A stretch of DNA of 25,436 bases from a virus (lineage: Duplodnaviria > Heunggongvirae > Uroviricota > Caudoviricetes): the IMG/VR virus record IMGVR_UViG_3300034105_002625, positions 1 to 25,436 of that record; one strand, 5' to 3'. A program made the position numbers and the translations under genes. The first letter of the stretch is position 1. Each line of letters starts with the position of its first letter. Below are positions 3,415 to 25,436 of this stretch, piece by piece. Below the pieces are notes generated by a model, which searched no databases, was not told the origin of the DNA, and saw only the letters and a list, made by a program, of their open reading frames with translations.

Positions 3415-4164
3415 ATGGAAAACAAATTTAACCTACCAACCGAAACGGTAGACCTTCCTTCAAAAGGACTTCTTTATCCAAAAGATTCCCCACTAGCAGA
3501 AGGTAAAATTGAAATGAAATATATGACCGCTAAGGAAGAAGATATTTTAACAAATTCAAATTACATTAGACAAGGAGTAGTTATTGATAAATTACTACAA
3601 TCACTAATCATCTCACCAATCAACTACTCAGACCTGCTTATAGGGGATAAGGATGCAGTTATGATGGCTGCACGTATTTTAGGGTACGGAAAAGATTATG
3701 ACTTTCAATACGCAGGAGAAAAAGTAACAGTAGATTTATCTACATTACAGCTTAAAGAATTAGACGAAAGTATAATAAAAGAAAAAGGTAAGAATGAGTT
3801 TGAATATAAACTTCCAAATACAGATAATAATATCACCTTCAGGCTATTAACACAAAAAGACGATAGAGATATTGATGCTGAATTAGAGGGATTAAAAAAA
3901 CTAAACAAGAACGCTAATAACGAATTGACAACACGTCTAAAGTATATGATATTGTCAATCAACGGAAACTACGAAAGAGGTACAGTGAGACAGTTTGTAG
4001 ATACAGCCTTCTTAGCTAGAGACTCTAGAGCATTCAGAGAATACTATGCTCAGATATCCCCAGGAGTAGAAACAAAAATTAAATTTGAAACAGAGTTTGG
4101 TGAAGAGGAGGACATCAACATTCAATTTAATTCTAACTTTTTTTGGCCTGAGTCCGGAAACTAG
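3415..4164 (+). CDS. Tail/baseplate-hub assembly chaperone (T4 gp26-like)
   Basis: LPTETVDLPSKGLLYP and MKYMTAKEEDIL N-terminal motifs of gp26-like proteins. Sits between tube and tape measure; ends NFFWPESGN. Confidence 0.8.
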   Translation: MENKFNLPTETVDLPSKGLLYPKDSPLAEGKIEMKYMTAKEEDILTNSNYIRQGVVIDKLLQSLIISPINYSDLLIGDKDAVMMAARILGYGKDYDFQYAGEKVTVDLSTLQLKELDESIIKEKGKNEFEYKLPNTDNNITFRLLTQKDDRDIDAELEGLKKLNKNANNELTTRLKYMILSINGNYERGTVRQFVDTAFLARDSRAFREYYAQISPGVETKIKFETEFGEEEDINIQFNSNFFWPESGN

Positions 4165-4417
4165 AGGAAACATTTTTAGGCAAATACATGAAATAGTCTT
4201 TCATGGACAAGGAGGTTATGATTGGGAGGCAGTTTACAATATGCCAGTATGGTTAAGGAGATTTACCTTCAGCACACTGCAAGAACATTACGATAAGTTA
4301 AATGCAGAAAATGATGATGAACTTAAACCAGTTAAAAACGGCAATAAAGTAGCACCACCAGATATTGTTCAAAAAGCAATGACACCAACATACAGTACGA
4401 AGGCATCTAATAAATGA
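4139..4417 (+). CDS. Chaperone extension ORF (gpT/gpE'/T4 gp51-like), probably expressed by +1 frameshift from 3415..4164
   Basis: The track ORF 4085..4417 starts at TTG. Its first in-frame ATG (4241) lies inside the YDWEAVYNMPVWLRRF motif, which resembles chaperone-extension domains. The frames overlap at a T7 run (4138-4144). Confidence 0.7.
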   Translation, partial: FFGLSPETRGNIFRQIHEIVFHGQGGYDWEAVYNMPVWLRRFTFSTLQEHYDKLNAENDDELKPVKNGNKVAPPDIVQKAMTPTYSTKASNK

Positions 4418-4425
4418 TGCCTTTT
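4400..4425 (+). terminator. Hairpin overlapping the stop of the chaperone extension, terminator candidate
   Basis: AAGGCATC-TAATAAAT-GATGCCTT perfect 8-bp stem followed by TT, immediately before a TATTTATA motif. Confidence 0.55.
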
Positions 4426-4427
4426 GC

Positions 4428-4435
4428 TATTTATA
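4428..4435 (+). promoter_or_regulatory. TATTTATA motif, candidate phage late promoter
   Basis: Exact copy 15 nt upstream of the tape measure ATG. Confidence 0.55.
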
Positions 4436-4450
4436 TGTATATAAAACACT

Positions 4451-7141: not shown

Positions 7142-7155
7142 TAAAATAAACAAAC

Positions 7156-7163
7156 TATTTATA
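7156..7163 (+). promoter_or_regulatory. TATTTATA motif, candidate phage late promoter
   Basis: Exact copy 21 nt upstream of the ATG at 7185. Confidence 0.55.
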
Positions 7164-7184
7164 ATAAAATAAAAAACAATTAAT

Positions 7185-7409
7185 ATGGGACTATTAGATT
7201 TACTACCAACATCTAACTTAGGGTTAGACGGAGCAACACCAACACGTATACCAAGTGCTAATCCAGCATCAACCCTACACTATCAATCATCAATTACCGA
7301 TGTACCAAACATCGATCAAAGCCCTTCTGCATTAGACATAAACGGTATCAAACCAACTATCTCTCCTACAGGACAACAACTTCCATATTTGGATCATTTA
7401 CCTAGATAA
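7185..7409 (+). CDS. Small Pro-rich hypothetical protein in the tail module (74 aa)
   Basis: ATG with an A-rich leader and upstream motif; fills the gap between tape measure and baseplate genes. Confidence 0.7.
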   Translation: MGLLDLLPTSNLGLDGATPTRIPSANPASTLHYQSSITDVPNIDQSPSALDINGIKPTISPTGQQLPYLDHLPR

Positions 7410-7417
7410 GAAGCTAA

Positions 7418-9106
7418 ATGGCAAGCGGACTAATTACAAAGAACACAGACCTTAAAAGTCTGAAGTATGGCTCTATGCCTCTTGGAAGTGATAAACCTTA
7501 TGTTACTAAAAACATAGGAGATGCACCAAGTAGCCAAATAGGGTCAGAAATTTCACATCGCATTGACGATGTTTCCCGTATTGCCCAAATGCTTGTAAAT
7601 AAGCCGGGAATAAAATACCTACTAAACGAAGCATTACTACAGCAAGTAAACGTAGGTCAAAGAATTAAAAAAGCACAACAGGGAGGAAAATCTTTAGTTG
7701 GAGCAGTTTTACAGCAAGCTGGAAGCACACTTCTTACAACAGTAAAAATTGCAGGATCAACTCTAGCACAAGTTCCTGTAAATGGAACAGGTACACATTT
7801 CTTAAAAGGATTTAGAACCGACACATATTTACGACCAGGTGCAAATGAAAAAATACCAGGAGCATTTGCTTCATTTTTTGGAGCAGGTGGAGTAGAAGGA
7901 GCACAGTATGCCCTAAGAGGAGAAACTGTACCAACTAATGTACAGACACAGTTCTATAAAGAAGGAAGTACTGTTAATAACGGAGACATTAAGAACCCTA
8001 CAACAGGTAAACCTTCAACCCTTTCTTATGATGCAAAAGTATTTACAGAAGATTACGGAACAGTAAATACTAACATAGTAGATAACACACCGCTACCAGA
8101 AGGAGATGCAAACAGACTAGCTGCATATAATGCAACAGCAGGGCAGGTAATAACAGTTACCCCATCAGGTAGTGCGTTAAGGCAGACCACAGCCAGCCCA
8201 GGAAACTTAGGTATATCAAACTTAACAGCTACAGGTAGTTATGGTCCAGATACTCTTAAGATATTTCAACCAACAACCTCAAAATACTCAGGACCAGAAA
8301 CCGGTTCATATCTTGAGCAAGAAAAGAAATTTGGAACTTTAAACAGAAATGTAACAAAAGAATTTAGAATAAAATTAGGAGATCAAGGAGATGCGCTTGA
8401 TGATAAAAAAGCAGCAAGAAGGAAAAACGAGTACTGGTTCATATCAGATGTAGATAAACGTAATCCAAGCGGATCTTTAGCGATTGATCAGATGAATCTA
8501 ATAGGTGTGAAGGATGCAAAAGTAGATGGAAACACAGCTGGTAGAGATCTAATTAAATTTAGATTTCATATTCTTACAGCAGATGGAGAAGAAAAAATAT
8601 TATACTTCAGAGCCTTCCTAGACTCGTTCGCAGATAACTACTCAGGACAATGGAACCCAGTAAAGTATTTAGGTAGAGCAGAAGATTTTCAAATCTATGG
8701 TGGCTTTCAAAGAAAAATTTCACTATCTTTTAAAATAGCAGCAGCTACTAGGTCAGAGATGAAACCATTGTATCAGAAAATGATTTGGCTAGCCTCAGCA
8801 ACTGCTCCAACATATGCAAATGAAGGACAGTTTATGAGAGGAACTATTACAAAAATAACAGTAGGAGATTATATTTATGAACTGCCCGGAGTCTTAAATA
8901 GTGTAAATTATACTTGGAATACAGAATATCCTTGGGAAATAGCAATGCTAGAGCCAGAAGGAGTACAAGGAGATGCAGAAATGCAGGAATTGCCAATGAT
9001 AATGGATTGTAGTATAGACTTTACCCCAATTCATACATTTACACCTGAGACAGGACTTAAGAAATTCTTCACAGCAGGAACAAGGTCGGAAAATACATAC
9101 ATATAG
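7418..9106 (+). CDS. Baseplate/tail-tube initiator-like structural protein
   Basis: C-terminal part (FRAFLDSFADNYSGQWNPVKYLGRAE...RKISLSFKI...ITVGDYIYELPGVLNSVNYTW...DCSIDFTPI) has the alternating beta pattern of tube-fold initiators (gp48/gp54-like). Position fits. Inference. Confidence 0.65.
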   Translation: MASGLITKNTDLKSLKYGSMPLGSDKPYVTKNIGDAPSSQIGSEISHRIDDVSRIAQMLVNKPGIKYLLNEALLQQVNVGQRIKKAQQGGKSLVGAVLQQAGSTLLTTVKIAGSTLAQVPVNGTGTHFLKGFRTDTYLRPGANEKIPGAFASFFGAGGVEGAQYALRGETVPTNVQTQFYKEGSTVNNGDIKNPTTGKPSTLSYDAKVFTEDYGTVNTNIVDNTPLPEGDANRLAAYNATAGQVITVTPSGSALRQTTASPGNLGISNLTATGSYGPDTLKIFQPTTSKYSGPETGSYLEQEKKFGTLNRNVTKEFRIKLGDQGDALDDKKAARRKNEYWFISDVDKRNPSGSLAIDQMNLIGVKDAKVDGNTAGRDLIKFRFHILTADGEEKILYFRAFLDSFADNYSGQWNPVKYLGRAEDFQIYGGFQRKISLSFKIAAATRSEMKPLYQKMIWLASATAPTYANEGQFMRGTITKITVGDYIYELPGVLNSVNYTWNTEYPWEIAMLEPEGVQGDAEMQELPMIMDCSIDFTPIHTFTPETGLKKFFTAGTRSENTYI

Positions 9107-9115
9107 GGTAGGTTT

Positions 9116-9412
9116 ATGAAAAGATACGAGAACATAAAAGTAGTACAATCACCAGAAGGAAAGCAGTATAGAACAACAACAATCTATCCAGAAACTCCTA
9201 TAAGTGAAAATGACTATTATATTATTACAACTGCAGGAGATCGTTATGATAATCTAGCAGATCAATTCTACAGTGATCATACACTTTGGTGGGTAATAGC
9301 ATCAGCAAATAATTCAGAAAGAGCTTCTTTAATTGTAGAACCAGGAATTCAACTTAGAATACCAGGAAATATAGATACAATCATAAACAATTACAATAAG
9401 GTAAATAAGTAA
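9116..9412 (+). CDS. LysM-like baseplate protein (gp53/tail protein X-like)
   Basis: YYIITTAGDRYDNLADQFYSDHTLWWVIASANN...PGIQLRIP matches the LysM-like pattern; lies before the hub gene. Confidence 0.85.
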   Translation: MKRYENIKVVQSPEGKQYRTTTIYPETPISENDYYIITTAGDRYDNLADQFYSDHTLWWVIASANNSERASLIVEPGIQLRIPGNIDTIINNYNKVNK

Positions 9413-9416
9413 AAAA

Positions 9417-12098
9417 ATGGCGGATGGTAAAATCATAGGAGGACCCTTCAGCAAGGAAGTTATAGCACAGTTAGCTTTACGAAGTAAGATTGTTTCTAAA
9501 GCCACTAGAGAGAATAAGGAACTCATATATTTAACATCAAAAACAGGATGGGTAAAACTAACCTCAGGAGTTAATGTAGGAGGTTCTTCTGCTTTAGCCA
9601 AGAAGTATATAATGGTTGGCGGTGTTAAAGGAAGAACCGGTACAGATACTTATAGTAATTTTTCAGGAGAAAATGGAAAAGGTTTTAGACCAATGCCAGG
9701 TATAACTGGAGTTCAAATAAACTCATTAGGGCAATTCGGACAATTAAAAGAAGCTACAGTCACTTTTAACTGTTGGGATAGATCTCAAATAACAGAACTA
9801 GAACTTCTTTTTATGAGACCTGGATTTACAGCATTACTTGAATGGGGACATACTGTCTATGCAAAATTAGAAGGTGAGTTTGAGAAAACTCCAAAAACTG
9901 TTGGATCTTTTTTTGATGCAGGCACTTCCAAAGAGCAGCTCTACAATGAAATAAAAGCCTTAAGGAAAGAAAGCGGATGTAACTACGAAGGTATGTTCGG
10001 CTTTATAAAAAACTTTTCATGGACCTATCGACAAGATGGAGGATATGACTGTACAACTAGTTTAGTTTCTATAGGAGAAATTATGGAATCTCTAACAATA
10101 GATGTAGATACTCCGGCACTTACAACCATAGTAGGAGATAAAACAAAAATAATACCTGCTACAATGCTGCAGAATGTTTTAAAGACCATTAAAGAAAGCC
10201 CTACAAATGGTTCTTGGAAAGACATAAAAACCAAATTCCCACAATTTGCTTCTAAGCACATAACAGTGGGGGGACGTGATACTTTAGATGTAGTAAAATT
10301 CTTTTTAAGGAGCATAAAAACAGGAGAAACAATAAACACAGATACAGGGCAGAGTTTTAGCTACATGTCACTGAAGAGCTTCTGTGAATTAGTCAATACA
10401 GTTATTATAGTAGATAATAACAAAAAAAACGTGATAAGGCTAAATACAGACATACTTAAGTTAAATAGTCAAGGTGGGGATAATACAAAAATACCTACCT
10501 GCAGATTTAGAACTTACAAGAACCATACATCAAGTGATCCAGGAGTTTGTATGTTAATGACCGACGGGTCTAAGAACTGGCCTTATGAGGAGAACCTTTT
10601 TGCTAAAATGCGATCAAACGCAGAAGGCTCTACTGATGAAATTTTAAATATTTACGTAAATGTAAACCTTCTTGAAAGTGCAATGACAAACCTACTTGCA
10701 ATGCCAGAGAAGGGCGATAGGAATTTACTAAACTTAATGAACCCAATCTTTGCAGAAATAAACTCTGTACTAGGAGATATTAACGATATAGGTTTACAGT
10801 ATGAAGAAGAGGAGTTTACCTACTACATAGTAGACAGAAAAGTGCAAGTTGAGACAAAGGACGTTTCGATCCTAAATGTTACAGGACTTAAATCAACTGT
10901 TTCACAATTCAACTTTACAACCAAGCTATCTCCAGCCATTACAACTATGTGTGCAATTTCAGCACAAGCAGGAGCAACAGATGTAGGACTAGAAGCAGGA
11001 GCATTACTAAGATGGAATGAAGGGTTAGAGGATCGAATTATTACTAAGAAGTCTATGAAGGTAGACGAACCAGCCTTTCCAACTGTTCCAACAACTTTTC
11101 CAATAGCAGGAGTTCCACTACCTACAGCAGCTGTACAGCCAACACCGGAACAACAAAGAGATGTTCAGCAGACCGATAGAAGAAATACAATTAAAGATGC
11201 ACTAGCACAAGTATATAATTCTGGACAATACGACAGTGAAGCAATAGCAGTTGCAAGAGCTCAATTTGGACCATATTCAACAAACTACGTACAATTCTAT
11301 GCAGAGGATAAAGTCAATGTGGGAAATGCAGGACCAGCAGGCATCATACCTTTCCAGGTAGGAATTGAAATGGATGGAATCTCAGGTATAAAAATTGGAC
11401 AAGCCTTTAAAATTAACGAAGGAATAATGCCAGCAAAATACGATGGAGTAGTTGGATTTATAGTAACAGGAATTGATCATAACATTGCAGGGAATAGATG
11501 GGTAACTAATCTTAAAGCTCAAACTATTGTACTAAAAGGTACAACAGAGAAACTAAGCGTTCCAACATACTCAGATGGCTTTACAGGAACAGGAGTTTCA
11601 ACAACTGAAGTAGCCGGACTAACTCCTATAACAAACTTTAAAGCAGAGAATGGACCTGCTAAAGTAGCAGCAGAACAGTACTTAGGGAGAAACCTTAGTG
11701 ATACAGAGTGGAATCAACTGGTAAGAGCAACCTTTGCAGAAGCAGGAGTAAATCAAACAGAGAGAGCTTACGTAATGGCAACTATTTTAAATAGAACTCG
11801 TGTAGCTAAATCTACAGTAACATCTATATTAACAGCCAAGAATCAATTTCAATCAGTAACAGGGACTGCAAGTAACGGACGTCAGCCAAGTTCTAATTAC
11901 AGAAATGGACCAGATAAGGTAAATGAAAAGAACATTTACGGTGCTGCAACAGGTATTTTAAAGAATGTACCTAAAACCATTATAAACTTTACAGCAGCAA
12001 ATAGAGCAGCATATGGAGCAGGAACTAATATAGCATATCTTGACACATTGAAAAAGAAAGGTGGAATACAGATAGGACAGACAGTCTTCTCATCATAG
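9417..12098 (+). CDS. Baseplate hub-like protein with C-terminal SleB/Hydrolase_2-like cell-wall hydrolase domain
   Basis: Follows the LysM gene. Hub-like motifs (ALLEWGH, GGYDCTTSLVSIGE, GIKIGQAFKI...GFIVTGIDHNI...WVTNL). C-terminal LVRATFAEAG...VMATILNR...ILTAKNQFQSV matches SleB-type lytic transglycosylases. Confidence 0.75.
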   Translation: MADGKIIGGPFSKEVIAQLALRSKIVSKATRENKELIYLTSKTGWVKLTSGVNVGGSSALAKKYIMVGGVKGRTGTDTYSNFSGENGKGFRPMPGITGVQINSLGQFGQLKEATVTFNCWDRSQITELELLFMRPGFTALLEWGHTVYAKLEGEFEKTPKTVGSFFDAGTSKEQLYNEIKALRKESGCNYEGMFGFIKNFSWTYRQDGGYDCTTSLVSIGEIMESLTIDVDTPALTTIVGDKTKIIPATMLQNVLKTIKESPTNGSWKDIKTKFPQFASKHITVGGRDTLDVVKFFLRSIKTGETINTDTGQSFSYMSLKSFCELVNTVIIVDNNKKNVIRLNTDILKLNSQGGDNTKIPTCRFRTYKNHTSSDPGVCMLMTDGSKNWPYEENLFAKMRSNAEGSTDEILNIYVNVNLLESAMTNLLAMPEKGDRNLLNLMNPIFAEINSVLGDINDIGLQYEEEEFTYYIVDRKVQVETKDVSILNVTGLKSTVSQFNFTTKLSPAITTMCAISAQAGATDVGLEAGALLRWNEGLEDRIITKKSMKVDEPAFPTVPTTFPIAGVPLPTAAVQPTPEQQRDVQQTDRRNTIKDALAQVYNSGQYDSEAIAVARAQFGPYSTNYVQFYAEDKVNVGNAGPAGIIPFQVGIEMDGISGIKIGQAFKINEGIMPAKYDGVVGFIVTGIDHNIAGNRWVTNLKAQTIVLKGTTEKLSVPTYSDGFTGTGVSTTEVAGLTPITNFKAENGPAKVAAEQYLGRNLSDTEWNQLVRATFAEAGVNQTERAYVMATILNRTRVAKSTVTSILTAKNQFQSVTGTASNGRQPSSNYRNGPDKVNEKNIYGAATGILKNVPKTIINFTAANRAAYGAGTNIAYLDTLKKKGGIQIGQTVFSS

Positions 12099-12122
12099 AG
12101 TTTAAAAATTAAATATAGTAGA

Positions 12123-12788
12123 ATGTACATACCTAAATCGAGATATAAAAAACCTAAATCAACTGACGGTACAGAGTTTGTAGAAGTTAAGTCTAGAAAA
12201 CTGTATAAGGGTTTTTATATAGAAACTTATAAAGGAAAGTTTTTTGCAGGAAAAACACCTGAAGAGGGAGGAGTTGAATTAGAAAAAATTAAAAAGGATA
12301 TAAAATTTCCGCTAGGTCTTTTAGGACTTCTAGCAGGATTCTTTTTAAAAAAACCAACTCAATCTGAAAAAGATAAAGGAGTAACAAAAAGAAATTTTAT
12401 ACAGGATAAAAACAACAACAAAATAATAGAAACAGATCCAGACACATATGCCCAGGCTAAAGAAAGTCTTGTAAATAGTGCATTTGCAGAAATAGATTGG
12501 ATTATAGGAGGACCAGCCAATGATGTAATGTTTGGAGAATATTTATATGAAGGAGCAGAATCTAAGAATAAAAAAACAATTCAAGCTCTAGAGACTACAT
12601 TACCGGGAATCTCTACCTTTGTAACCGATTATACCTACCTGGTGGAAGATACTACAACTACTACTACAACAGTAGAAAATCTAGCAGTATCTCAATCGGC
12701 CTTAGATCAAGCACAAACCTTCCTAATACAAGATCCAGATATACAACTAGAAAATTTTCGAAAAGCAAATTTCGATTTAAGAAAATAA
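12123..12788 (+). CDS. Hypothetical phage protein (221 aa), last gene of the tail block
   Basis: Intact ORF followed by a terminator; contains a short hydrophobic stretch (LGLLGLLAGFFL) and a Thr run. Confidence 0.75.
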   Translation: MYIPKSRYKKPKSTDGTEFVEVKSRKLYKGFYIETYKGKFFAGKTPEEGGVELEKIKKDIKFPLGLLGLLAGFFLKKPTQSEKDKGVTKRNFIQDKNNNKIIETDPDTYAQAKESLVNSAFAEIDWIIGGPANDVMFGEYLYEGAESKNKKTIQALETTLPGISTFVTDYTYLVEDTTTTTTTVENLAVSQSALDQAQTFLIQDPDIQLENFRKANFDLRK

Positions 12789-17685: not shown

Positions 17686-19038
17686 ATGACATCATTAGCA
17701 AAATTATCTTCCTACGGAAAAGGATTCCAATTAAAAGTATTGGGAGCATTACTAACAGACAAAAAATTCTTGCTTAACACAAGAGATTTACTACAACCAG
17801 ATTATTTTGATTCAGATGCACATAAGTGGATCCTAGAAACTACTATCAAGTATTATGATAAGTATCATACTACAATTTCATTGGAAGCATTGAAAATTGA
17901 ATTACAGAAAGTAGAGAATGATATCTTACAAGTAGCAGTTAAAGCAGAATTAAGAAACTGTTACGAAGCCACTCAAGAGGATCTAGCATACGTTGTAGAA
18001 GAATTTACTACCTTTGCCAAAAACCAAGAACTTAAAGCAGCATTACTAAACTCAGCAGACCTATTAAATCAAGGAGACTTTGATGGAATTAGAGGATTGA
18101 TTGAAAGAGCTATGAGAGCTGGTATGGATAAGAATATGGGTCATGAATATAATAAGGATGTAGAGAGTCGTTATAGAGAAAACTACAGACCAACTATTCC
18201 AACACCTTGGCCGATTATGAATGAAACCATTGGAGGTGGTTGGGGCCCTGGCGATTTAATTATTATGTTTGGTAATCCTGGAGGAGGAAAGTCTTGGACG
18301 ATGGTGGCAGCAGCAGCACATGCAGTACTAATGGGATTCAATGTAAACTTCTATACTCTAGAACTAGGAGAAGATTATGTAGGAAAACGTTTTGACTGTT
18401 ACTTCACAGGACATGGAATTGAAGAAGTAAATAAACATAGAGGAGAGGTTGAGAAGATTGTAGGTAAATTAAAAGGAAAATTAATTGTAAAAGAGTATCC
18501 ACCAAAAGGAGCTTCAATCAATACAATTAAATCTCACATCCAGAAATGTATCGATATGGATCACAAACCAGATATGGTTATTATTGATTATGTCGATTAT
18601 TTAAAAGCACCTTCTAAATCTCGTTTCACAGAGAGAAAAGATGAAATAGATGATGTGTTTATTGGAGCAAAAGGACTAGCTAAGGAACTTCAAATTCCTA
18701 TTCTAACACCATCTCAAGTTAATAGAATGGGTGCTAAGGATTCTGTTATCGAAGGAGATAAAGCAGCAGGTTCTTACGACAAGATGATGGTAGCAGATAT
18801 TTGTTTATCTCTTTCTAGAATGAAAGAAGATAAGGTTTTAGGAACGGGAAGAATTCACGTTATGAAGAACAGATATGGAATGGATGGTATGACCTGGGAT
18901 GCAAAAGTAGATACAAATAATGGTCATATTGAGATTTTAGGAAACATGTTACTAGACGAATCTGGCGACAAACCTAAAGGAAGTTATAAAGAAATAGCTA
19001 ACAAGTTCTTTGAGTTGGAGAGTCAAGTTCCATTCTAA
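17686..19038 (+). CDS. dnaB: Replicative DnaB-like helicase (T4 gp41-like)
   Basis: Walker A GNPGGGKS, YTLEL, VIIDYVD, PSQVNR and VMKNRYG motifs of SF4 helicases. Confidence 0.92.
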   Translation: MTSLAKLSSYGKGFQLKVLGALLTDKKFLLNTRDLLQPDYFDSDAHKWILETTIKYYDKYHTTISLEALKIELQKVENDILQVAVKAELRNCYEATQEDLAYVVEEFTTFAKNQELKAALLNSADLLNQGDFDGIRGLIERAMRAGMDKNMGHEYNKDVESRYRENYRPTIPTPWPIMNETIGGGWGPGDLIIMFGNPGGGKSWTMVAAAAHAVLMGFNVNFYTLELGEDYVGKRFDCYFTGHGIEEVNKHRGEVEKIVGKLKGKLIVKEYPPKGASINTIKSHIQKCIDMDHKPDMVIIDYVDYLKAPSKSRFTERKDEIDDVFIGAKGLAKELQIPILTPSQVNRMGAKDSVIEGDKAAGSYDKMMVADICLSLSRMKEDKVLGTGRIHVMKNRYGMDGMTWDAKVDTNNGHIEILGNMLLDESGDKPKGSYKEIANKFFELESQVPF

Positions 19039-19043
19039 AAGCC

Positions 19044-19051
19044 TATTTATT
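19044..19051 (+). promoter_or_regulatory. TATTTATT variant motif upstream of nrdB
   Basis: Intergenic, 41 nt before the nrdB ATG; one mismatch to TATTTATA. Confidence 0.35.
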
Positions 19052-19092
19052 TCTACAGTCATAATCTATAACGAATATTAAAAAAAGCGAAT

Positions 19093-20070
19093 ATGAGTCT
19101 AAAAGACGAACGCATAGTTTACAAACCATTTGAATACCCACAAGCACACGATTACTGGCTTAAAGCGCACCAAGCGCACTGGTTACATACAGAAGTTCCA
19201 ATGTCACAAGACGTAACAGATTGGAATTCGAACTTAAAACCACACGAAAAAAATGTTATAGGCGGAATCCTAAAAGGATTTGCTCAAACAGAAACAGTTG
19301 TAAACGATTACTGGACATCTTTAGTAACAAAATGGTTTAGAAAACCAGAAGTTATCATGATGGCAGTTACTTTTGGAGCTTTCGAAACAATCCATGCTGA
19401 AGCATATGCTCTACTAAACGAGCAATTAGGATTAGATAATTTTGCAGAATTCTTAGAAGACGAATCAACAGCAGCTAAAATTCAATCTTTACTGGATGTT
19501 AGAGACGGAAATGCAGGAGAAACAGATTGGCATGAAGCAGCTAGATCTCTAGCAATATTCTCAGCATTTACCGAAGGAGTAAATCTATTCTCTTCTTTTG
19601 CGGTACTATTATCATTTAAGATGAGAAATAAGTTAAAAGGAGTAGGTCAAATAGTTGAATGGTCTGTAAGAGATGAATCACTTCACTCAGAAGCAGGATG
19701 TTGGTTATTTAGAACTTTAATGGAAGAATATCCAGAACTAAAAACAGAAAAACTTATCAACGATATTAGAGAAGCAGCAACACTTGCTCTTCAACTAGAA
19801 TTTAACTTTATCGATAAGATATTTGAAATGGGAGATTTAGAGAATTTATCTAAAAACGAACTAAAAAACTTTATTAAACACAGAGTAAATACTAAGATGG
19901 GAGATTTAGGATTAAAACCTTTAATACCTTCAGATCAAATCGATAAAGGAGCTTTAAAACAAATGTTATGGTTTGATGCAGTAGTAGCAGGTAAACAACA
20001 TACAGATTTTTTCGCATCAAGAGTAACGAATTATGCCAAAGGGCATATGGATTGGGACAACGCATTTTAA
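19093..20070 (+). CDS. nrdB: Class I ribonucleotide reductase beta subunit
   Basis: Ferritin-like metal ligands E67 (FAQTE), E98-x-x-H101 with Tyr105, FTEG and RDESLH; C-terminal DFF...VTNY. Confidence 0.96.
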   Translation: MSLKDERIVYKPFEYPQAHDYWLKAHQAHWLHTEVPMSQDVTDWNSNLKPHEKNVIGGILKGFAQTETVVNDYWTSLVTKWFRKPEVIMMAVTFGAFETIHAEAYALLNEQLGLDNFAEFLEDESTAAKIQSLLDVRDGNAGETDWHEAARSLAIFSAFTEGVNLFSSFAVLLSFKMRNKLKGVGQIVEWSVRDESLHSEAGCWLFRTLMEEYPELKTEKLINDIREAATLALQLEFNFIDKIFEMGDLENLSKNELKNFIKHRVNTKMGDLGLKPLIPSDQIDKGALKQMLWFDAVVAGKQHTDFFASRVTNYAKGHMDWDNAF

Positions 20071-20079
20071 TTTAATTTT

Positions 20080-21789
20080 ATGGGAGTAGATTACAGTGCC
20101 TGGAAACCAGGCGTAGATTATCCGGAATGGATGAATGAAGTATCTTTGGCAACAATTTCAAACGGATATTTACTTCCGGATGAAAATCCAAAGAAGGCTT
20201 ATAGAAGAGTTGCTGATGCAGTAGCTAAAAGATTAGATCGTCCTGATCTAGCAAACAAGTTTTTTAAATACATGTGGAAGGGTTGGCTAAACCTAGCTTC
20301 ACCTGTACTCTCAAACACTGGAACTGACAAAGGACTTCCAATCTCATGTTTCGGTATAGATACTCCTGATTCAATCAGAGGTATTGGATTAACCAATGCA
20401 GAACTGATGAGACTTACCTCTTTAGGAGGAGGAGTAGGAATTGGACTAGGAAGAGTTAGAGGAAGAGGAAAAAAGATTGCCAATGGCGATACAGGTAACT
20501 CAGAAGGAATTATACCTTGGGCTAAGATCTATGATTCAACTATCATTGCTACAAATCAAGGATCAGTTCGTAGAGGAGCAGCTTCTGTAAATCTAGACAT
20601 CAATCATATTGATATAAAAGAGTTCTTACGTATTAGAAGACCACAAGGAGATCCAAACCGTCAGTGTTTAAATTTACACCAATGTGTTTCTATCGATGAT
20701 AAGTTCATGAAGAGATTAGAGCATAGAGATCCTGAAGCAATGGAACTATGGGTTGAGATTCTTAAATCAAGAGTTGAGACAGGAGAGCCTTACATTATGT
20801 TTAAGGATAATGTTAATAACGCTAATCCACCTGCATACGTTAAAAATAACTTAGATGTTACAATGACTAACATATGTTCGGAGATTGCTTTACATACTGA
20901 CGAAGAGCATTCATTTGTATGTTGTTTATCTTCTTTAAATATTACAAAATACGAAGAGTGGAAAGATACTGATTTAGTTGAAACGGCAATTTATTTCTTA
21001 GATGGAGTATTAGAAGAGTTCTTAGTTAAGACAAATGGTAAAGATTCTTTAATTAGAGCACACCGTTCTGCTAAGAAAGGAAGAGCATTAGGATTAGGAG
21101 TTTTAGGATGGCATTCATTCTTACAATCAAAAGGATTACCTTTTAATTCAATCGCATCTACTTCTTGGACAAATAGAATATTTGCACAGATTAAAACACA
21201 AGCAGAAGCAGCTTCTAGAAAATTAGCTGAAGAGTATGGTGAACCAATCTGGTGTAAAGGAACAGGAATGAGAAATACGCATTTAATTGCTATTGCTCCA
21301 ACAGTTTCTAATTCAACAATCTCAGGAGGAGTATCAGCAGGTATTGAACCAATTCCAGCAAACGTTTATACTTTCAATTCATCTAAAGGAACTTTCATTA
21401 GAAAGAATCCAGTATTAGAAAAATACTTAGAAGACAAAGGACACAATACAGAAGAGGTATGGCAGCAAATTTTAAAGGATAGAGGATCAATTGCAAATCT
21501 ACCTGAAGACATTATGCCGTTTGATGATAAAGAAGTATTCTTAACATTTGCAGAAATAAACCAATTGGCTTTAGTAGAACAAGCTTCGGTAAGACAGAAG
21601 TATGTTGACCAGGCTCAATCACTAAACTTAGCATTCGATCCGGGAGATAGTCCTAAATTTATAAACCTTGTTCACCAGACAGCTTGGAAACTTGGATTAA
21701 AAACGTTATATTATTTAAGAACCGATTCTGTCATAAATGGGGATATCGGGAGTAGAACTTCTGAAGACTGTTTAAGCTGTGATGGATAA
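20080..21789 (+). CDS. nrdA: Class I ribonucleotide reductase alpha subunit, no ATP-cone apparent
   Basis: GLPISCF, GGGVG, TNICSEI (N-x-C-x-E), CCLSSLN, IAPT, KTLYYLR and C-terminal CLSCDG. At 569 aa there is no room for an N-terminal ATP-cone. Confidence 0.97.
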   Translation: MGVDYSAWKPGVDYPEWMNEVSLATISNGYLLPDENPKKAYRRVADAVAKRLDRPDLANKFFKYMWKGWLNLASPVLSNTGTDKGLPISCFGIDTPDSIRGIGLTNAELMRLTSLGGGVGIGLGRVRGRGKKIANGDTGNSEGIIPWAKIYDSTIIATNQGSVRRGAASVNLDINHIDIKEFLRIRRPQGDPNRQCLNLHQCVSIDDKFMKRLEHRDPEAMELWVEILKSRVETGEPYIMFKDNVNNANPPAYVKNNLDVTMTNICSEIALHTDEEHSFVCCLSSLNITKYEEWKDTDLVETAIYFLDGVLEEFLVKTNGKDSLIRAHRSAKKGRALGLGVLGWHSFLQSKGLPFNSIASTSWTNRIFAQIKTQAEAASRKLAEEYGEPIWCKGTGMRNTHLIAIAPTVSNSTISGGVSAGIEPIPANVYTFNSSKGTFIRKNPVLEKYLEDKGHNTEEVWQQILKDRGSIANLPEDIMPFDDKEVFLTFAEINQLALVEQASVRQKYVDQAQSLNLAFDPGDSPKFINLVHQTAWKLGLKTLYYLRTDSVINGDIGSRTSEDCLSCDG

Positions 21790-21800
21790 AAAATAAAAAT

Positions 21801-22250
21801 ATGGTATACTTTATAGTAGTAGTACTTCTAGTAATTGGAGCACTAGTTTATATTACAAACATAGCAAAAGCTGAAGTAAAAAGATTAGAACAGGTTATAG
21901 TTGAAAAAGAACTAGAACTGGTTGAAGAGATTAAGAAAGCAAGGAAAGATTCAACATTTAGATCCTCAGCAGTTAACTGGGGTAAGACAATTGAACACTT
22001 TGTTCCTTTCATGACTAAGTTTCCAGTACCACCTGAAGATGTAGTCTTTTTAGGAATGCCAATTGATTATGTAGGATTTACTAATACAGATAGCAAAACT
22101 AAATGTGAGGTACATTTCATTGAAGTAAAATCAGGAAATGCATTCTTAATGGGTAAGCAGAAAAACATTAAGCAAGCAATTCTAGACGGAAGAGTTCACT
22201 GGCATGAAATTGCAGTAGACGGTAACAGAGCAGAGATCACAGAAGAATAG
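21801..22250 (+). CDS. Membrane-anchored PD-(D/E)XK endonuclease related to archaeal Holliday junction resolvase (Endonuc_Holl-like)
   Basis: N-terminal hydrophobic helix (YFIVVVLLVIGALVYI), a coiled segment, then GKTIEHFVPF...FLGMPIDYVGF...FIEVKSG. Confidence 0.8.
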   Translation: MVYFIVVVLLVIGALVYITNIAKAEVKRLEQVIVEKELELVEEIKKARKDSTFRSSAVNWGKTIEHFVPFMTKFPVPPEDVVFLGMPIDYVGFTNTDSKTKCEVHFIEVKSGNAFLMGKQKNIKQAILDGRVHWHEIAVDGNRAEITEE

Positions 22251-22251
22251 C

Positions 22252-22259
22252 TATTTATA
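22252..22259 (+). promoter_or_regulatory. TATTTATA motif upstream of the secreted-protein operon
   Basis: Exact copy 4 nt before the ATG at 22264. Confidence 0.5.
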
Positions 22260-22263
22260 TGAA

Positions 22264-23262
22264 ATGAATATACTAGCCAAAATAGTAAAATTGTTATACC
22301 CTCTACTAATACTAGGGGGTATTTTATCTACACAGAGTCAAACCTTTACGCACTCAGGATATATCTATGGTTCAAATGCAGTAGGCATATCTGGTATACC
22401 AGTTTACCTGTATAAAAGAACAACACCAACATTAACAGGATTTACATCTCAGAATAACTACAACGGTCATTCCTACTATAGGTCAACAGGTTCTATGACC
22501 TGGACTGCTGCAAGACAGGCTTGTTTAAATATGGGAGGACATTTAGTAACTGTAACAACAGCAGCTGAAAATACTTTTATATTTAACCTATGGCCTAATG
22601 GATGGATTGGATTAACAGATGAAGCAGTAGAAGGGCAATGGAGATGGGTAACTGGGGAAACCTTTTCTTGGGCTAATTGGAATGGAGGTGAACCTAATAA
22701 TTCCAATAATGAAGACTATATACAATTTGTAGGAGGAGGGAAGTGGAATGATTTACCAAATACATCACTTCCTTATGTATTGGAATTTGAGTATATAGTA
22801 GACTATACACCTTGGACTTTATTAACAACTTCAACAACAGATGCTTCGGGTAGATATTCTTTCTCTACATCAACAAACCCCTCAATAGAATACTACATTA
22901 CTTTTACTCCACCCTCCTTACCATCTTTAATTAACCTAGATGCTCAAACCTCTAATACCTTAGTAACAAATCCTCTTCTAATGAGAAGTAAAGATTTCTA
23001 TAGATTTGATGTTAATAGTGATGGAAAAGTAACCATATCAGACACCTACTTAATATATGCTAAAAAGAATGGATTATTTACATCATTCCCTGCCTCACCG
23101 CCGGATAGTAGAATATTCACCACAACACAATGGAGTACATTTAGTAACAGTACAGTAAATCAAAAGATAGCATATCCTGGAGTACAGTCTATAACAATCA
23201 ATACACCAACCTCAGGAGGAGCATCTTCATTCTATATTACAAGAGTGGGGTACACTAACTAA
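22264..23262 (+). CDS. Secreted protein: Sec signal peptide, SdrD-B/CnaB-like beta-sandwich with inserted C-type lectin domain, dockerin-like C-terminus
   Basis: Signal peptide ending STQS|Q26. Lectin at about 22441-22791 with TW..A...C...GGHL, WIGL, W.W, NW..GEPN and WND motifs. DVNSDGKVTISD Ca-binding loop at 23008-23043. Confidence 0.85.
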   Translation: MNILAKIVKLLYPLLILGGILSTQSQTFTHSGYIYGSNAVGISGIPVYLYKRTTPTLTGFTSQNNYNGHSYYRSTGSMTWTAARQACLNMGGHLVTVTTAAENTFIFNLWPNGWIGLTDEAVEGQWRWVTGETFSWANWNGGEPNNSNNEDYIQFVGGGKWNDLPNTSLPYVLEFEYIVDYTPWTLLTTSTTDASGRYSFSTSTNPSIEYYITFTPPSLPSLINLDAQTSNTLVTNPLLMRSKDFYRFDVNSDGKVTISDTYLIYAKKNGLFTSFPASPPDSRIFTTTQWSTFSNSTVNQKIAYPGVQSITINTPTSGGASSFYITRVGYTN

Positions 23263-23272
23263 AAACTTACAA

Positions 23273-23280
23273 TATTTATT
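23273..23280 (+). promoter_or_regulatory. TATTTATT variant motif upstream of the cohesin-dockerin gene
   Basis: Intergenic, 58 nt before the ATG at 23339; same TATTTATTAT extension as at 554. Confidence 0.4.
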
Positions 23281-23338
23281 ATAGACAAAGTGCAAGAGCA
23301 CCAGGTTTTATTAAAAAAAATAACTTAAAAAAAAAGAA

Positions 23339-24430
23339 ATGAAGAAATTACTTTTAATGTTAAGTTTAGTTTTAGTAACACTTACTGGGTATTCACAAAC
23401 TATTGCACCAGATGCTACTAAACCTTACTTAATTTTTGATCAAGCCTACAACCTACAACCAGTTGGGGCAGCAACACCAACATCTGTTGCAATCTACTAC
23501 GATAATGCAGGATCTACTGCCATTAAAGCAGTACAGTTTAGATTATGGTACGACAAGACCGTATTTGATTCACCTACCGTAACTTACGTAGGATCAGAAA
23601 TAAACAACTATTTCCAAACTCTAGTAAACACAACAGAAGGTAGCGTAACAGTTACATGGGTTTATACAGGAGCAAATGCTTCATTCGACTTAACTGATGG
23701 GCAAATGTTTAATGTAGCTCTTCCTTTTAAAGCATCTTACACAAATGGTGCAGTAGCATCAATGGCTTTTACAGGAGCAACAGCTTATCCATCTTATGGA
23801 ACTTTAGCCAATGGAACTGATACAGTATTAGGATTACAAAACTATGGTGGAGCATTTACAGAACCAGTATTTAACTATGCAGCTACATTCCTAAACGACC
23901 CAACCAATCCTGCAACAGACGTACCAGTTATCTTACAGAAATCTTCAAACGGAACAGTTTGGACTGATGTAATGACTGTACCAACTCTAGCAACAGGAGT
24001 AGCAGCATTTACAACAAACCTAGATCAGACATACTGGCAAATTAGAGTAAAAGTAGCACCAGGCTTAACAGCACCAGCTGCTTTATCTACAGCAGATTCT
24101 AATATGATTGCTCAAATGGCTACAGGAATTCAAACACCAACAGGTACTCAATTCTATACAGCTAACCCTAATCAAGCAAACAATATAACAATCTCGGATT
24201 CATATACAGTATTCTCTAGATTAGCTCAAGGTAATTCAACTTACCCAAACAATCCAGATGTATTATTCTTTACAGAAGCTCAATATACTTCAATAGCAGC
24301 ATCTGCTACAAGTTTAGAGGCTACAATCCCAGGTCAAGTAACATTCCTATCAGCTAACATCAATAACACAGTTGCTGCTAATTACTATTTACTGGTACTA
24401 GGAGATGTAAACGGAACAGGACGTAACTAA
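23339..24430 (+). CDS. Secreted protein: Sec signal peptide, cohesin-like domain, beta-sandwich, dockerin-like C-terminus
   Basis: Signal peptide MKKLLL...TGYS|Q20. Cohesin-like IKAVQFRLWYDKTVF...GSVTVTW...MFNVALPF. C-terminal TISDSY and LGDVNG. Confidence 0.75.
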   Translation: MKKLLLMLSLVLVTLTGYSQTIAPDATKPYLIFDQAYNLQPVGAATPTSVAIYYDNAGSTAIKAVQFRLWYDKTVFDSPTVTYVGSEINNYFQTLVNTTEGSVTVTWVYTGANASFDLTDGQMFNVALPFKASYTNGAVASMAFTGATAYPSYGTLANGTDTVLGLQNYGGAFTEPVFNYAATFLNDPTNPATDVPVILQKSSNGTVWTDVMTVPTLATGVAAFTTNLDQTYWQIRVKVAPGLTAPAALSTADSNMIAQMATGIQTPTGTQFYTANPNQANNITISDSYTVFSRLAQGNSTYPNNPDVLFFTEAQYTSIAASATSLEATIPGQVTFLSANINNTVAANYYLLVLGDVNGTGRN

Positions 24431-24431
24431 T

Positions 24432-25163
24432 ATGATACGTTGGATAGTAATATTATTTATATCCATAAACTCACTCTACTCCCAGGTACAATTTCAAGTG
24501 CCTGGGATTACTGTGTTACCTACTCAGACTATTGAACTACCTGTAACTGTTTTAACAAATGGAAATACAGTAGGTAGTTTAGAATTTGCTTTAAACTATG
24601 ATCAAAGCATACTACAATTCTCAGAGATAGTACTATCGGAACAAGCACAAACCTGGGTATCATATACAATGGATGCAGGTAATGGAAAAGTAAGATGGGG
24701 TGGTTATGATAAATCCCACGGAGGACATTCTATAACTACACCTTCAGAATTATTTATACTTAAGTTTATAGTACTAAATCCAAACTGGATTATAACTCCA
24801 ATCACGGTTGGAAGAAAAACAGCAGGAGATGTACAGGGATGGGATATAGCAGTAACAAATACTAATGGGTATATCAATTATAATAGAACTGCAATACCTA
24901 TCGATGAAACAAAAATAAACGGTATAGTACATCCAAATCCAACAGATGGACTTGTAACAGTAGATTTAATACTACCAACAAGTGATTACTATAGAGTATC
25001 AGTAGTAAACATGTCAGGTACAGAGTTAAGAAGGAGAGTTGAACATTATATAAAAGGAGCCAATATAACAGAAGAAGATCTTAGTTCTTACTCAAGTGGC
25101 ACCTATTTATTAAATATAACCAGTAAGAACTTTACTAAAACATTTAAAATAATTAAAAAATAA
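24432..25163 (+). CDS. Secreted protein: Sec signal peptide, cohesin-like domain, type IX secretion (Por) C-terminal sorting domain
   Basis: Signal peptide ending SLYS|Q18. Cohesin-like TIELPVTV...VGSLEFALNYDQSILQF...GKVRWGG...LFILKF. Final ~80 aa (HPNPT...DLSSYSSGTYLLNI...TFKIIKK-stop) match the type A T9SS CTD pattern. Confidence 0.88.
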   Translation: MIRWIVILFISINSLYSQVQFQVPGITVLPTQTIELPVTVLTNGNTVGSLEFALNYDQSILQFSEIVLSEQAQTWVSYTMDAGNGKVRWGGYDKSHGGHSITTPSELFILKFIVLNPNWIITPITVGRKTAGDVQGWDIAVTNTNGYINYNRTAIPIDETKINGIVHPNPTDGLVTVDLILPTSDYYRVSVVNMSGTELRRRVEHYIKGANITEEDLSSYSSGTYLLNITSKNFTKTFKIIKK

Positions 25164-25166
25164 ATC

Positions 25167-25436
25167 ATGTCAGAAGAAACAAACGAAGGTGGATTATCAG
25201 GATTGAAAAAAACAATCTTAGGAACTTTAACAACTATTGTAACAGCAGGAGGAGTTTGGTTAACAACTCATTTATTTGGAGGAGAAGCTACAGATAAAGA
25301 AGAAGTAAAAACTGAAGTAGCAGCACCAGCAGCTGCAGCACCAGTTATCATCAACTTATCAAACAATAACACCAACCAACAAAAACAACAATCAAACAAT
25401 TCCAATTCAGCTAAAGCAGCACCTGCACCAGTTCAA
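25167..25436 (+). CDS. Truncated membrane-anchored protein (5' part)
   Basis: ATG at 25167, 3 nt after the previous stop, open to the window end: MSEETNEGGLSGLKKTILGTLTTIVTAGGVWLTTHLFGG, then Ala/Pro- and Asn/Gln-rich linkers. Not in the supplied ORF track. Confidence 0.75.
   Translation, partial: MSEETNEGGLSGLKKTILGTLTTIVTAGGVWLTTHLFGGEATDKEEVKTEVAAPAAAAPVIINLSNNNTNQQKQQSNNSNSAKAAPAPVQ

What the first reader, a model, noticed from the sequence alone, without database searches (positions are those of the whole stretch)
22264..25436. Phage-encoded lectin/cohesin/dockerin module with a type IX secretion signal
Seen in sequence: directly after the replication block, three co-oriented genes encode proteins with Sec signal peptides (lectin + dockerin-like; cohesin-like + dockerin-like; cohesin-like + C-terminal HPNP...G.Y.L.I...TFKIIKK), followed by a membrane protein. 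Established knowledge: that C-terminal pattern is the type A T9SS sorting signal of Bacteroidota, which directs export and often surface anchoring, and cohesin-dockerin pairs assemble cellulosome-like complexes. Inference: the phage builds a glycan-binding structure on the infected cell surface using the host T9SS. Possible roles are attachment to particles or neighbouring hosts, receptor masking or superinfection exclusion. Signal peptides argue against ordinary virion proteins. I know of no characterised phage system like this.
Basis: partly seen in the sequence, partly recalled or inferred. Interest (0 to 1): 0.92.

Follow-up and report, generated by a model that had tools for sequence, protein, structure and literature searches.

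The report
Phage cohesin-dockerin lectin set with T9SS tag
A Flavobacterium phage carries a conserved set of exported proteins that look built to snap together, cellulosome-style, into a sugar-binding structure tied to the host's type IX secretion system; nothing like it has been characterised in a virus, and a cultured phage-host pair exists to test it.

Summary
Three co-oriented genes (22264-25163) encode signal-peptide proteins:
- A: a C-type lectin domain plus a dockerin-like module.
- B: a cohesin fold plus a paralogous dockerin-like module.
- C: a cohesin plus a type A T9SS sorting domain.
A membrane protein (D) follows.

The junction is not chimeric. The same block sits in cultured Flavobacterium phage vB_FspM_immuto and in about 25 viral contigs.

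New here:
- The three genes belong to a conserved seven-gene envelope module, with D, a CsgG-like protein, an outer-membrane barrel protein and a small exported protein.
- In distant relatives B and C are fused into one protein.
- A's sugar-binding head is swapped between relatives (C-type lectin, PA14, GEVED, laminin-G) on a constant docking module.
- The complete relative holds only one T9SS tag, two cohesins and two docking modules.

Best reading (about 0.55): a lectin-adaptor-anchor complex assembled by cohesin-dockerin-type contacts at the infected cell's surface. How A and B cross the outer membrane, and what the complex is for, remain unknown.

Phage-encoded T9SS cargo had been noted in two papers. 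I found no report of a phage cohesin-dockerin set. The scan holds one other first-reader note on this same stretch, and none on other DNA.

The parts
22264..23262 (+). Gene A: exported lectin protein (332 aa). Signal peptide about residues 1-25. The first strands of a beta-sandwich come next, then an inserted C-type lectin domain, then the rest of the sandwich, a dockerin-like module and a small C-terminal subdomain.
   Evidence: ORF. Pfam Lectin_C. The C-terminal 165-306 is paralogous to B 191-332 (E 3e-7). The N-terminal 25-72 matches the first strands of the contiguous sandwich in P0176.
22492..22767 (+). C-type lectin domain of A (residues 77-168). It keeps EPN (143-145) and WND (161-163), the calcium and sugar-site motifs, but has only one cysteine.
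   Evidence: Pfam PF00059, 58.3 bits against a cut-off of 22.6. The motifs were read from the translation. Their meaning comes from established knowledge of C-type lectins.
23008..23043 (+). Calcium-loop-like segment of A's dockerin-like module (D-x-N-x-D-G-x-x-x-x-x-D, residues 249-260), followed by a helix.
   Evidence: Sequence. Sub-threshold alignment to the Group I dockerin 5m2o_B over this segment (E 0.11). Pfam Dockerin_1 E 0.11.
23339..24430 (+). Gene B: exported adaptor (363 aa). Signal peptide 1-19, cohesin fold 25-177, beta-sandwich 178-240, two-helix dockerin-like part 251-296, C-terminal subdomain to 363.
   Evidence: AlphaFold2 model, pLDDT 86.7, pTM 0.75. Cohesin matches at Z 13-15. 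The stretch 25-301 aligns to CipA cohesin-X-dockerin chains 4fl4_I and 3kcp_A at Z 14.7 and 14.3.
24432..25163 (+). Gene C: exported anchor candidate (243 aa). Signal peptide 1-17, cohesin from residue 19, T9SS type A C-terminal sorting domain 166-243.
   Evidence: Pfam Cohesin and Por_Secre_tail, and TIGR04183, all above cut-off. It is the only Por_Secre_tail match in this record and in the complete 160 kb relative.
24927..25160 (+). T9SS type A sorting domain of C, with the conserved PNP, G-x-Y and K-I-I-K motifs.
   Evidence: The motifs are conserved in the alignment with fused relatives.
25167..25436 (+). Gene D (cut by the window end; 105 aa in the full record). One transmembrane segment, then a low-complexity Ala/Pro/Asn/Gln tail ending in a conserved Trp.
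   Evidence: Orthologues sit in the same position in 23 related viral loci and the cultured relative (L002) and in L029 and L030.

Best explanation
Genes A, B and C encode a phage-made, three-part cohesin-dockerin-type assembly that carries a sugar-binding head. All three proteins enter the periplasm through Sec.

C (cohesin plus type A sorting domain) is taken across the outer membrane by the host's type IX secretion system and either stays on the surface or is released. B (cohesin, beta-sandwich, dockerin-like module) docks onto C through its C-terminal module. A docks through the paralogous module onto B's cohesin. This places a calcium-type C-type lectin, or in relatives a PA14, GEVED or laminin-G head, at the tip.

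The set is the first half of a conserved seven-gene envelope module. The other products are the membrane protein D, a CsgG/LpoB-like periplasmic protein E, an outer-membrane barrel F with a tethered N-terminal domain, and the small exported protein G. These may supply the outer-membrane route or platform for A and B, which lack a T9SS tag.

Shown: the domain make-up, the folds, synteny, the fusion and the head swapping.
Inferred: who binds whom, T9SS export, surface location, and the role. My guess for the role is binding of host or neighbour surface glycans during infection, for receptor masking or cell and particle attachment.
For: Domains and folds:
- Lectin_C in A; Cohesin, Por_Secre_tail and TIGR04183 in C, all above the curated cut-offs.
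- The B model has a cohesin fold at Z 15.2 (rmsd 2.5 A over 140 residues). Its residues 25-301 align to the CipA cohesin-X-dockerin chains.
- A and B share a C-terminal module.

Rosetta-stone fusion: nine of the ten relatives scanned (631-668 aa) are B fused to cohesin plus Por_Secre_tail, and three more hits have the same length. P0123 residues 409-640 align with C residues 17-243.

Counting: the complete relative (160 kb) and this record each hold one sorting domain, two cohesins and two docking modules. No other phage protein is a candidate partner.

Signal peptides ending in small residue|Gln are conserved in the orthologues of A, B, C, E, F and G.

Synteny: A-G are syntenic in about 25 viral contigs. 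The gene order is rearranged but the set stays together in distant contigs L029 and L030.

Head swapping on a constant module.

Complex prediction, with B cohesin plus C cohesin and A's module as the partner:
- Verdict: weak support. Score 0.34; best of 3 controls 0.01.
- That mark was reached by 58 of 80 solved complexes and 2 of 110 mismatched pairs. At 0.60 or under it was reached by only 7 of those 80, and by both mismatches that passed.
- The runs agree in at least 64% of contacts, and the partner's pLDDT is at least 55.
- Replacing B's cohesin dropped the score to 0.01.
- Cohesin-dockerin complexes are solved, so this pass may reflect likeness only.

Not chimeric: 82.8% nucleotide identity and the same order in cultured phage vB_FspM_immuto_2-6A.
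Against: - Only C has a T9SS tag. A and B have no recognised way across the outer membrane, and piggy-back export through T9SS is not established.
- The dockerin-like modules fail Pfam's Dockerin_1 cut-off. In this clade B's calcium loop is degenerate (N-P-N-Q-A-N-N instead of D-x-N-x-D-G).
- The complex score is weak, and no interface was reported.
- Many type A T9SS substrates of Flavobacterium are released rather than anchored (established knowledge), so 'anchor' is uncertain.
- Head type does not follow either the phage's tail region or its glycan island in five related genomes. This gives no support to a simple receptor-matching role.
- There are no localisation or binding data, and transcription is not shown (one RNA-library hit).
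Confidence: 0.55

Rival explanations
1. Periplasmic or vesicle-bound complex. A and B never cross the outer membrane on their own. The lectin and cohesin-dockerin contacts act in the periplasm, for example on peptidoglycan or on lipopolysaccharide or capsule intermediates. Alternatively they leave only in vesicles or at lysis.
For: A and B have Sec signals but no sorting domain. E resembles the periplasmic CsgG/LpoB-type domain only by language-model features. D looks like an inner-membrane protein with a periplasmic tail.
Against: - C keeps a full type A sorting domain, with its motifs conserved across distant relatives.
- In fused relatives B itself carries that tag.
- The heads (C-type lectin, PA14, GEVED, laminin-G) are typical of extracellular adhesins.
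Confidence: 0.15
2. Envelope-remodelling or egress module. The seven genes act in lysis or outer-membrane disruption, or they exclude superinfecting phage. The lectin set targets the module to the envelope.
For: In the lineage of L041 a peptidoglycan-binding amidase gene (endolysin-like) lies directly upstream of the A-like gene. D, and in some relatives an extra small membrane protein, are present. F is an outer-membrane barrel.
Against: - None of A-D matches any PHROG family, lysis families included. E, F and G were scanned against Pfam only, without a significant match.
- The endolysin adjacency appears in one lineage only.
- Neither a T9SS tag nor swappable lectin heads is needed for lysis.
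Confidence: 0.12
3. Self-polymerising fibre. B's docking module binds B's own cohesin head-to-tail. A caps the tip and C forms the base, giving a pilus-like filament instead of a 1:1:1 complex.
For: - B carries both a cohesin and a docking module, A only a docking module and C only a cohesin.
- Foldseek also matches Gram-positive pilins weakly.
- In fused relatives one chain has two cohesins and one docking module.
Against: - The two cohesins and the two docking modules are strongly diverged from each other (24% identity between the modules). This is what distinct specificities would look like.
- The fusion of B to C points to a B-C contact.
- B self-association was not tested.
Confidence: 0.1
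4. Virion-associated proteins. The set decorates capsids or tails, as Ig-like and lectin-fold domains do in other phages.
For: [quoted passage not shown] The sorting domain is itself a beta-sandwich.
Against: - Conserved cleavable signal peptides on all three proteins.
- The genes lie after the replication and nucleotide-metabolism genes, outside the tail block.
- No other phage protein carries a cohesin or docking module.
- No reverse transcriptase or template repeat, so this is not a diversity-generating retroelement target.
Confidence: 0.05

Closest known systems
Clostridial cellulosome scaffoldins, especially the CipA C-terminal cohesin-X-dockerin II unit docking onto an anchoring cohesin (PDB 3kcp, 4fl4)
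   Same: - B has the same order of modules: a cohesin, an Ig-like sandwich and a helical calcium-loop module.
- A second protein (C) offers a cohesin joined to a cell-surface targeting signal.
- A third protein (A) joins a functional head to a docking module.
   Different: - No enzymes: the cargo is a lectin or another binding head.
- The anchor is a T9SS sorting domain, not SLH repeats or a sortase signal.
- The docking module fails Pfam's dockerin cut-off, shows only one clear calcium loop and has an extra C-terminal subdomain.
- It is encoded by a virus.
Phage-encoded T9SS cargo reported from metagenomes: 'Cryophage' endoglucanase, GH39 and PA14 proteins (PMC7468147); a crAss-like BACON protein with a sorting domain (PMC6949934)
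   Same: A phage of Bacteroidota encodes a protein with a type A sorting domain. The cargo is variable between phage variants.
   Different: In those cases each cargo carries its own tag. Here a single tagged cohesin protein would carry untagged partners by docking, and it sits in a conserved seven-gene envelope module. Neither paper reports cohesin or dockerin modules.
T9SS-secreted surface adhesins of Flavobacterium, such as the lectin-domain adhesin RemA (from my own knowledge, not tested here)
   Same: A glycan-binding protein exposed on the cell surface through T9SS.
   Different: RemA is one large host protein with its own C-terminal signal. Here the lectin and the signal are on separate phage proteins.
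Functional-amyloid export components: CsgG (curli) and FapF (Pseudomonas)
   Same: E is called CsgG-like by language-model features and by some JGI annotations. F has an N-terminal domain, a long disordered linker and a 12-strand-type barrel, and FapF is its top Foldseek hit.
   Different: E has no Pfam CsgG hit and no lipobox, and by my reading its would-be membrane hairpins are charged. The F model is of low confidence (pLDDT 51.8), and its matches are generic 12-strand barrels.

Membership tests
T9SS type A C-terminal sorting domain (TIGR04183 / PF18962) | Profile score above the curated cut-off at the extreme C-terminus | tested here: met
   TIGR04183 46.5 bits against 23, and PF18962 39.6 bits against 27, over residues 166-243 of 243.
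T9SS type A C-terminal sorting domain (TIGR04183 / PF18962) | N-terminal Sec signal peptide on the same protein | tested here: met
   A hydrophobic N-terminus ending in Y-S|Q is conserved in all orthologues. This is a heuristic reading; no SignalP run was possible.
T9SS type A C-terminal sorting domain (TIGR04183 / PF18962) | Secretion depends on the host T9SS, and the domain is cleaved | not testable with these tools
   This needs expression in wild type against gldK, sprA or porV mutants.
Cohesin (PF00963) | Profile score above the cut-off | tested here: met
   Met for C: 34.6 bits against 24.1. B reaches only 11 bits and 17.4 bits in the six-frame search, so B fails by sequence.
Cohesin (PF00963) | Nine-strand jelly-roll cohesin fold | tested here: met
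   B residues 25-177 match many solved cohesins: Z 15.2, rmsd 2.5 A, 140 aligned for 6kgd_A, and Z 13-15 for more than 20 entries. C was not folded.
Cohesin (PF00963) | Binds a dockerin partner | tested here: inconclusive
   One search gave weak support: score 0.34, best control 0.01. That mark was reached by 58 of 80 solved complexes and 2 of 110 mismatches. At 0.60 or under it was reached by only 7 of the 80, and by both mismatches that passed. Contact agreement was at least 64% and the partner's pLDDT at least 55. The pass may reflect likeness to solved complexes.
Dockerin type I (PF00404) | Profile score above the cut-off | tested here: not met
   A reaches 13.1 bits, P0122 17.6 and P0125 18.8, against a cut-off of 22.9. 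A PDB profile search found dockerins only at E 0.11 and 5.8. I therefore call the module dockerin-like, not a member.
Dockerin type I (PF00404) | Two duplicated calcium-loop-plus-helix segments | tested here: inconclusive
   A has one canonical loop (D249 to D260) followed by a helix. The first segment keeps only the helix with its preceding Asp. The B model shows two main helices at 251-262 and 285-296. In this clade B's loop is degenerate.
C-type lectin domain (PF00059) | Profile score above the cut-off | tested here: met
   58.3 bits against 22.6, covering profile positions 2-99 of 107.
C-type lectin domain (PF00059) | Calcium and sugar-site motifs (EPN or QPD, and WND) | tested here: met
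   EPN at 143-145 and WND at 161-163, read in the translation. EPN predicts mannose, GlcNAc or fucose-type ligands by established knowledge. Binding was not tested.
C-type lectin domain (PF00059) | Conserved disulfide pairs | tested here: not met
   The whole of A has only one cysteine.
Cellulosome | Dockerin-bearing carbohydrate-active enzymes assembled on a scaffoldin | tested here: not met
   No catalytic domain was found in A-G or in head variants. The heads are Lectin_C, PA14, GEVED and Laminin_G_3. It works like a scaffoldin system but is not a cellulosome.
CsgG family (PF03783), for the neighbouring protein E | Profile match and lipoprotein signal | tested here: not met
   No Pfam hit. 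The signal peptide ends in A|Q with no Cys. The only resemblance is by language-model features at 0.94 and in some JGI names.

The most novel reading that the evidence does not exclude
The seven genes form a self-contained, phage-encoded surface-appendage system with two export routes. The host T9SS places the cohesin anchor C. The phage's own barrel F, with E, D and G, exports A and B, which then assemble outside the cell by calcium-dependent cohesin-dockerin-type contacts. The product is a tip-adaptor-anchor complex, or a B polymer, whose exchangeable lectin head lets the infected cell grip particular glycans on itself, on neighbouring hosts or on particles. This would be a virus re-tooling the adhesive surface of its host during a lytic infection.
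Probability: 0.2. Interest if true: 0.85.

Novelty: new variant of a known kind. Interest (0 to 1): 0.72.

Why it matters
Cohesin-dockerin assembly is known from bacterial and archaeal cell surfaces. T9SS cargo in phages has only been noted in passing. A conserved phage module that joins the two, with interchangeable sugar-binding heads, would show that lytic phages of Bacteroidota rebuild the outside of the infected cell, not only its metabolism.

The module is abundant. Its members have hundreds to thousands of metagenomic relatives, and near-identical DNA occurs in about 20 lake-water data sets.

It is also present in a cultured pair, phage vB_FspM_immuto and Flavobacterium sp. LMO8. Secretion, binding and fitness effects can therefore be tested directly.

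It may also offer a compact natural display scaffold for Bacteroidota.

Tried and rejected
Searches that found nothing useful:
- PHROGs gave no hit for A-D.
- PDB sequence searches with profiles of B and E found nothing.
- The scan with E then found only two loci among 185,579 species' genomes. One is a 2.2 kb fragment. The other lies on a 248 kb contig of a Flavobacteriaceae MAG that also encodes a tail sheath, so I read it as a binned large phage, not a bacterial copy.
- tblastn of B and E against 50,697 phage records hit only the Immuto isolates.

Ideas tested and dropped:
- Diversity-generating retroelement acting on the lectin: no reverse transcriptase in either genome and no template repeat.
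- A's head type tracking the phage's variable glycan island: not seen. The PA14-head genome G004 shares most of this record's island at 84-87%, while the lectin-head genome G002 differs over much of it.
- Head type tracking the tail or baseplate region: not seen either. The region at 3.3-12 kb is 82-86% alike in G004 but largely diverged in the lectin-head genomes G002 and G003. This rests on five genomes only.

Leads I do not rely on:
- E as a true CsgG channel: see the membership test.
- The F model has mean pLDDT 51.8. Only the barrel (60-80) is usable, and its matches are generic 12-strand barrels.
- G gave no informative lead.
- One metatranscriptome library holds contigs 90-99% like parts of A, B and C, including one across the A-B gap. 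These are contigs from an RNA library, so they show neither transcription nor its level.
- Promoter and terminator scans were at chance level.
- Literature searches found no paper on the Immuto lectin or cohesin genes.
Full report
**Setting.** The window is the first 25.4 kb of an 89 kb viral record. It encodes a myovirus tail (sheath, tube, hub), then SSB, a UvsX-like recombinase, an exonuclease, DnaB, NrdB, NrdA and a Holliday-junction-resolvase-like endonuclease, all on the + strand. The stretch 19000-25436 is 82.8% identical in DNA to cultured Flavobacterium phage vB_FspM_immuto_2-6A (160 kb, host Flavobacterium sp. LMO8, Baltic Sea). The gene order is the same there, and the products are annotated only as 'lectin C-type domain-containing protein', 'hypothetical protein' and 'cohesin domain-containing protein'. 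The junction near 22250 is therefore not an assembly chimera. The same endonuclease-to-A junction recurs in many viral contigs.

**The observation.** Three tightly packed genes follow the endonuclease, with gaps of 13, 76 and 1 nt.
- A (22264-23262) has a Pfam C-type lectin domain (58.3 bits against 22.6). It keeps the EPN and WND motifs but has a single cysteine.
- C (24432-25163) has a cohesin (34.6 bits against 24.1) and a type A T9SS sorting domain (TIGR04183, 46.5 bits against 23). The PNP, G-x-Y and K-I-I-K motifs are conserved.
- B (23339-24430) gives only a faint cohesin signal by sequence. An AlphaFold2 model built on 19 diverse relatives (pLDDT 86.7, pTM 0.75) shows a cohesin fold for residues 25-177 (Z 15.2, rmsd 2.5 A over 140 residues). 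Residues 25-301 align with the cohesin-X-module-dockerin unit of CipA (4fl4_I Z 14.7, 3kcp_A Z 14.3).
- D (from 25167) is a single-pass membrane protein with a low-complexity tail.

All three finding proteins, and the downstream E, F and G, start with a basic residue, a hydrophobic run and a small residue followed by Gln. This pattern is conserved in orthologues. It fits signal peptidase I sites of Bacteroidota (established knowledge). No SignalP run was possible.

**The shared docking module.** The C-terminal 165-306 of A and 191-332 of B are paralogous (E 3e-7). The module consists of a transthyretin/CarboxypepD_reg-like sandwich, a helix, a D-x-N-x-D-G-x-x-x-x-x-D loop with a second helix, and a small beta subdomain. 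It resembles dockerins only below threshold: Pfam gives 13-19 bits against 22.9, and the PDB profile search gives E 0.11 to a Group I dockerin. I call it dockerin-like and do not file it in that family.

In A the lectin domain is inserted after the first strands of the sandwich. In the relative P0176 the lectin domain precedes an uninterrupted sandwich.

1. Context. A-B-C-D are followed by E (237 aa), F (475 aa) and G (150 aa), and all seven are syntenic in about 25 viral contigs down to 45-55% identity. E is CsgG/LpoB-like only by language-model features and some JGI names, with no Pfam hit. F has a small N-terminal domain, about 150 disordered residues and a C-terminal barrel ending in Phe. 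Its best, weak matches are FapF, NanC/KdgM and autotransporter barrels.
2. Fusion. A profile search over 1.84 billion representatives found about a dozen relatives of 627-668 aa. Nine of the ten scanned with Pfam are B continuous with cohesin plus sorting domain. Their contigs keep D-, E-, F-, A- and G-like genes nearby in a different order. A fusion of two proteins in some genomes is a classical hint that they work together, and here probably that they touch.
3. Head swapping. Orthologues of A keep the docking module but carry Lectin_C, PA14, GEVED, Lectin_C with an inserted Laminin_G_3, or unrecognised heads.
4. Counting. This record and the complete Immuto genome each contain one sorting domain, two cohesins and two docking modules. 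The set is closed.
5. Distribution. The module is essentially confined to phages. In one genome for each of 185,579 species, E found two loci: a short fragment, and a 248 kb MAG contig that also has a tail sheath gene.

**Mechanism.** The simplest wiring is that A's module binds B's cohesin, B's module binds C's cohesin, and C's sorting domain engages T9SS.
- The B-C link rests on the fusion.
- The A-B link has only weak computational support. The score was 0.34 and the best control 0.01. That mark was reached by 58 of 80 solved complexes and 2 of 110 mismatches. At 0.60 or under it was reached by only 7 of those 80, and by both mismatches that passed. Contact agreement was at least 64% and the partner's pLDDT at least 55. 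The score fell to 0.01 when B's cohesin was replaced while C's was kept. Solved cohesin-dockerin complexes may have guided the model.
- T9SS export of C is inferred from a family-level signal plus a signal peptide.
- The weak point is that A and B lack a tag. They may ride on C, or leave through F (with D, E, G), or stay periplasmic until lysis. None of this can be settled here.

**Role.** This is open. Exchangeable glycan-binding heads on a constant chassis suggest adaptation to variable surface sugars. I tested two simple predictions, and neither held in five related genomes: head type follows neither the phage's variable sugar-biosynthesis island (reported earlier by this scan) nor its tail region. 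A diversity-generating retroelement is absent. Receptor masking, protection of progeny from debris, host aggregation and attachment to particles all remain possible.

**Comparison with what is known.** The system works like a cellulosomal scaffoldin set but lacks enzymes, so it is not a cellulosome. Phage genes with T9SS sorting domains have been noted in cryoconite 'Cryophage' (PMC7468147) and in crAss-like contigs (PMC6949934). In both, each cargo carries its own tag. My searches of the held literature found no description of a viral cohesin-dockerin set or of these Immuto genes.

**Verdict.** I rate it a new variant of known kinds and of high interest, because a cultured phage-host pair makes it testable. 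Confidence in the surface lectin-adaptor-anchor model is about 0.55.

Noticed in passing
G000 25478-28073 (beyond the window; L003:479-3074): Three more exported proteins always travel with A-D. E (237 aa) is CsgG/LpoB-like by language-model features only. F (475 aa) has a small N-terminal domain with two conserved Cys, about 150 disordered Ser/Thr/Gly/Asn-rich residues and a C-terminal outer-membrane barrel ending in Phe. G (150 aa) is a small exported protein with a conserved Cys. The E family alone gave more than 5,400 metagenomic hits.
   Followed up: partly
L012:8156-9411 (also L004, L011, L013, L014, L023, L026 between D and E): Some relatives carry two extra genes between D and E. One encodes an 89 aa single-pass membrane protein. 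The other encodes a 327 aa very acidic, repetitive Ala/Glu/Gly/Val-rich protein with a coiled-coil-like tail and no signal peptide. Both are absent from this record, where D and E overlap.
   Followed up: no
L002:9242-9820 (NC_055915 9935-10513): The cultured relative has an extra NUC1-type DNA/RNA endonuclease gene between the Holliday-junction-type endonuclease and gene A. This window lacks it (13 nt gap).
   Followed up: no
L041:4798-5679: In a divergent lineage, on a 248 kb contig binned in a Flavobacteriaceae MAG that also has a tail sheath gene, a PG_binding_1 plus Amidase_2 endolysin-like gene lies directly upstream of the A-like gene.
   Followed up: partly
L030:1203-7879: In one distant contig the B-C fusion gene sits directly downstream of a run of glycosyltransferase, methyltransferase and carbamoyltransferase genes. 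This record has its own sugar island about 41 kb downstream. No co-variation between head type and island type was seen in five genomes.
   Followed up: partly
window 6001-7000 (inside ORF 4451-7141): There is a local rise in G+C (0.41 against about 0.35) and a strong GC skew (0.30) inside an 896 aa tail-region ORF that has no PHROG match.
   Followed up: no
window 3300-12700: The baseplate and fibre region is mosaic among close relatives. It is 82-86% alike in genome G004 but largely replaced or diverged in G002 and G003, which are otherwise 89-91% alike from 12.7 kb onward.
   Followed up: partly
window 22264-25436: Near-identical DNA is held by about 19 lake-water or freshwater metagenome runs from separate studies. 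A marine metatranscriptome library holds contigs 90-99% alike.
   Followed up: partly
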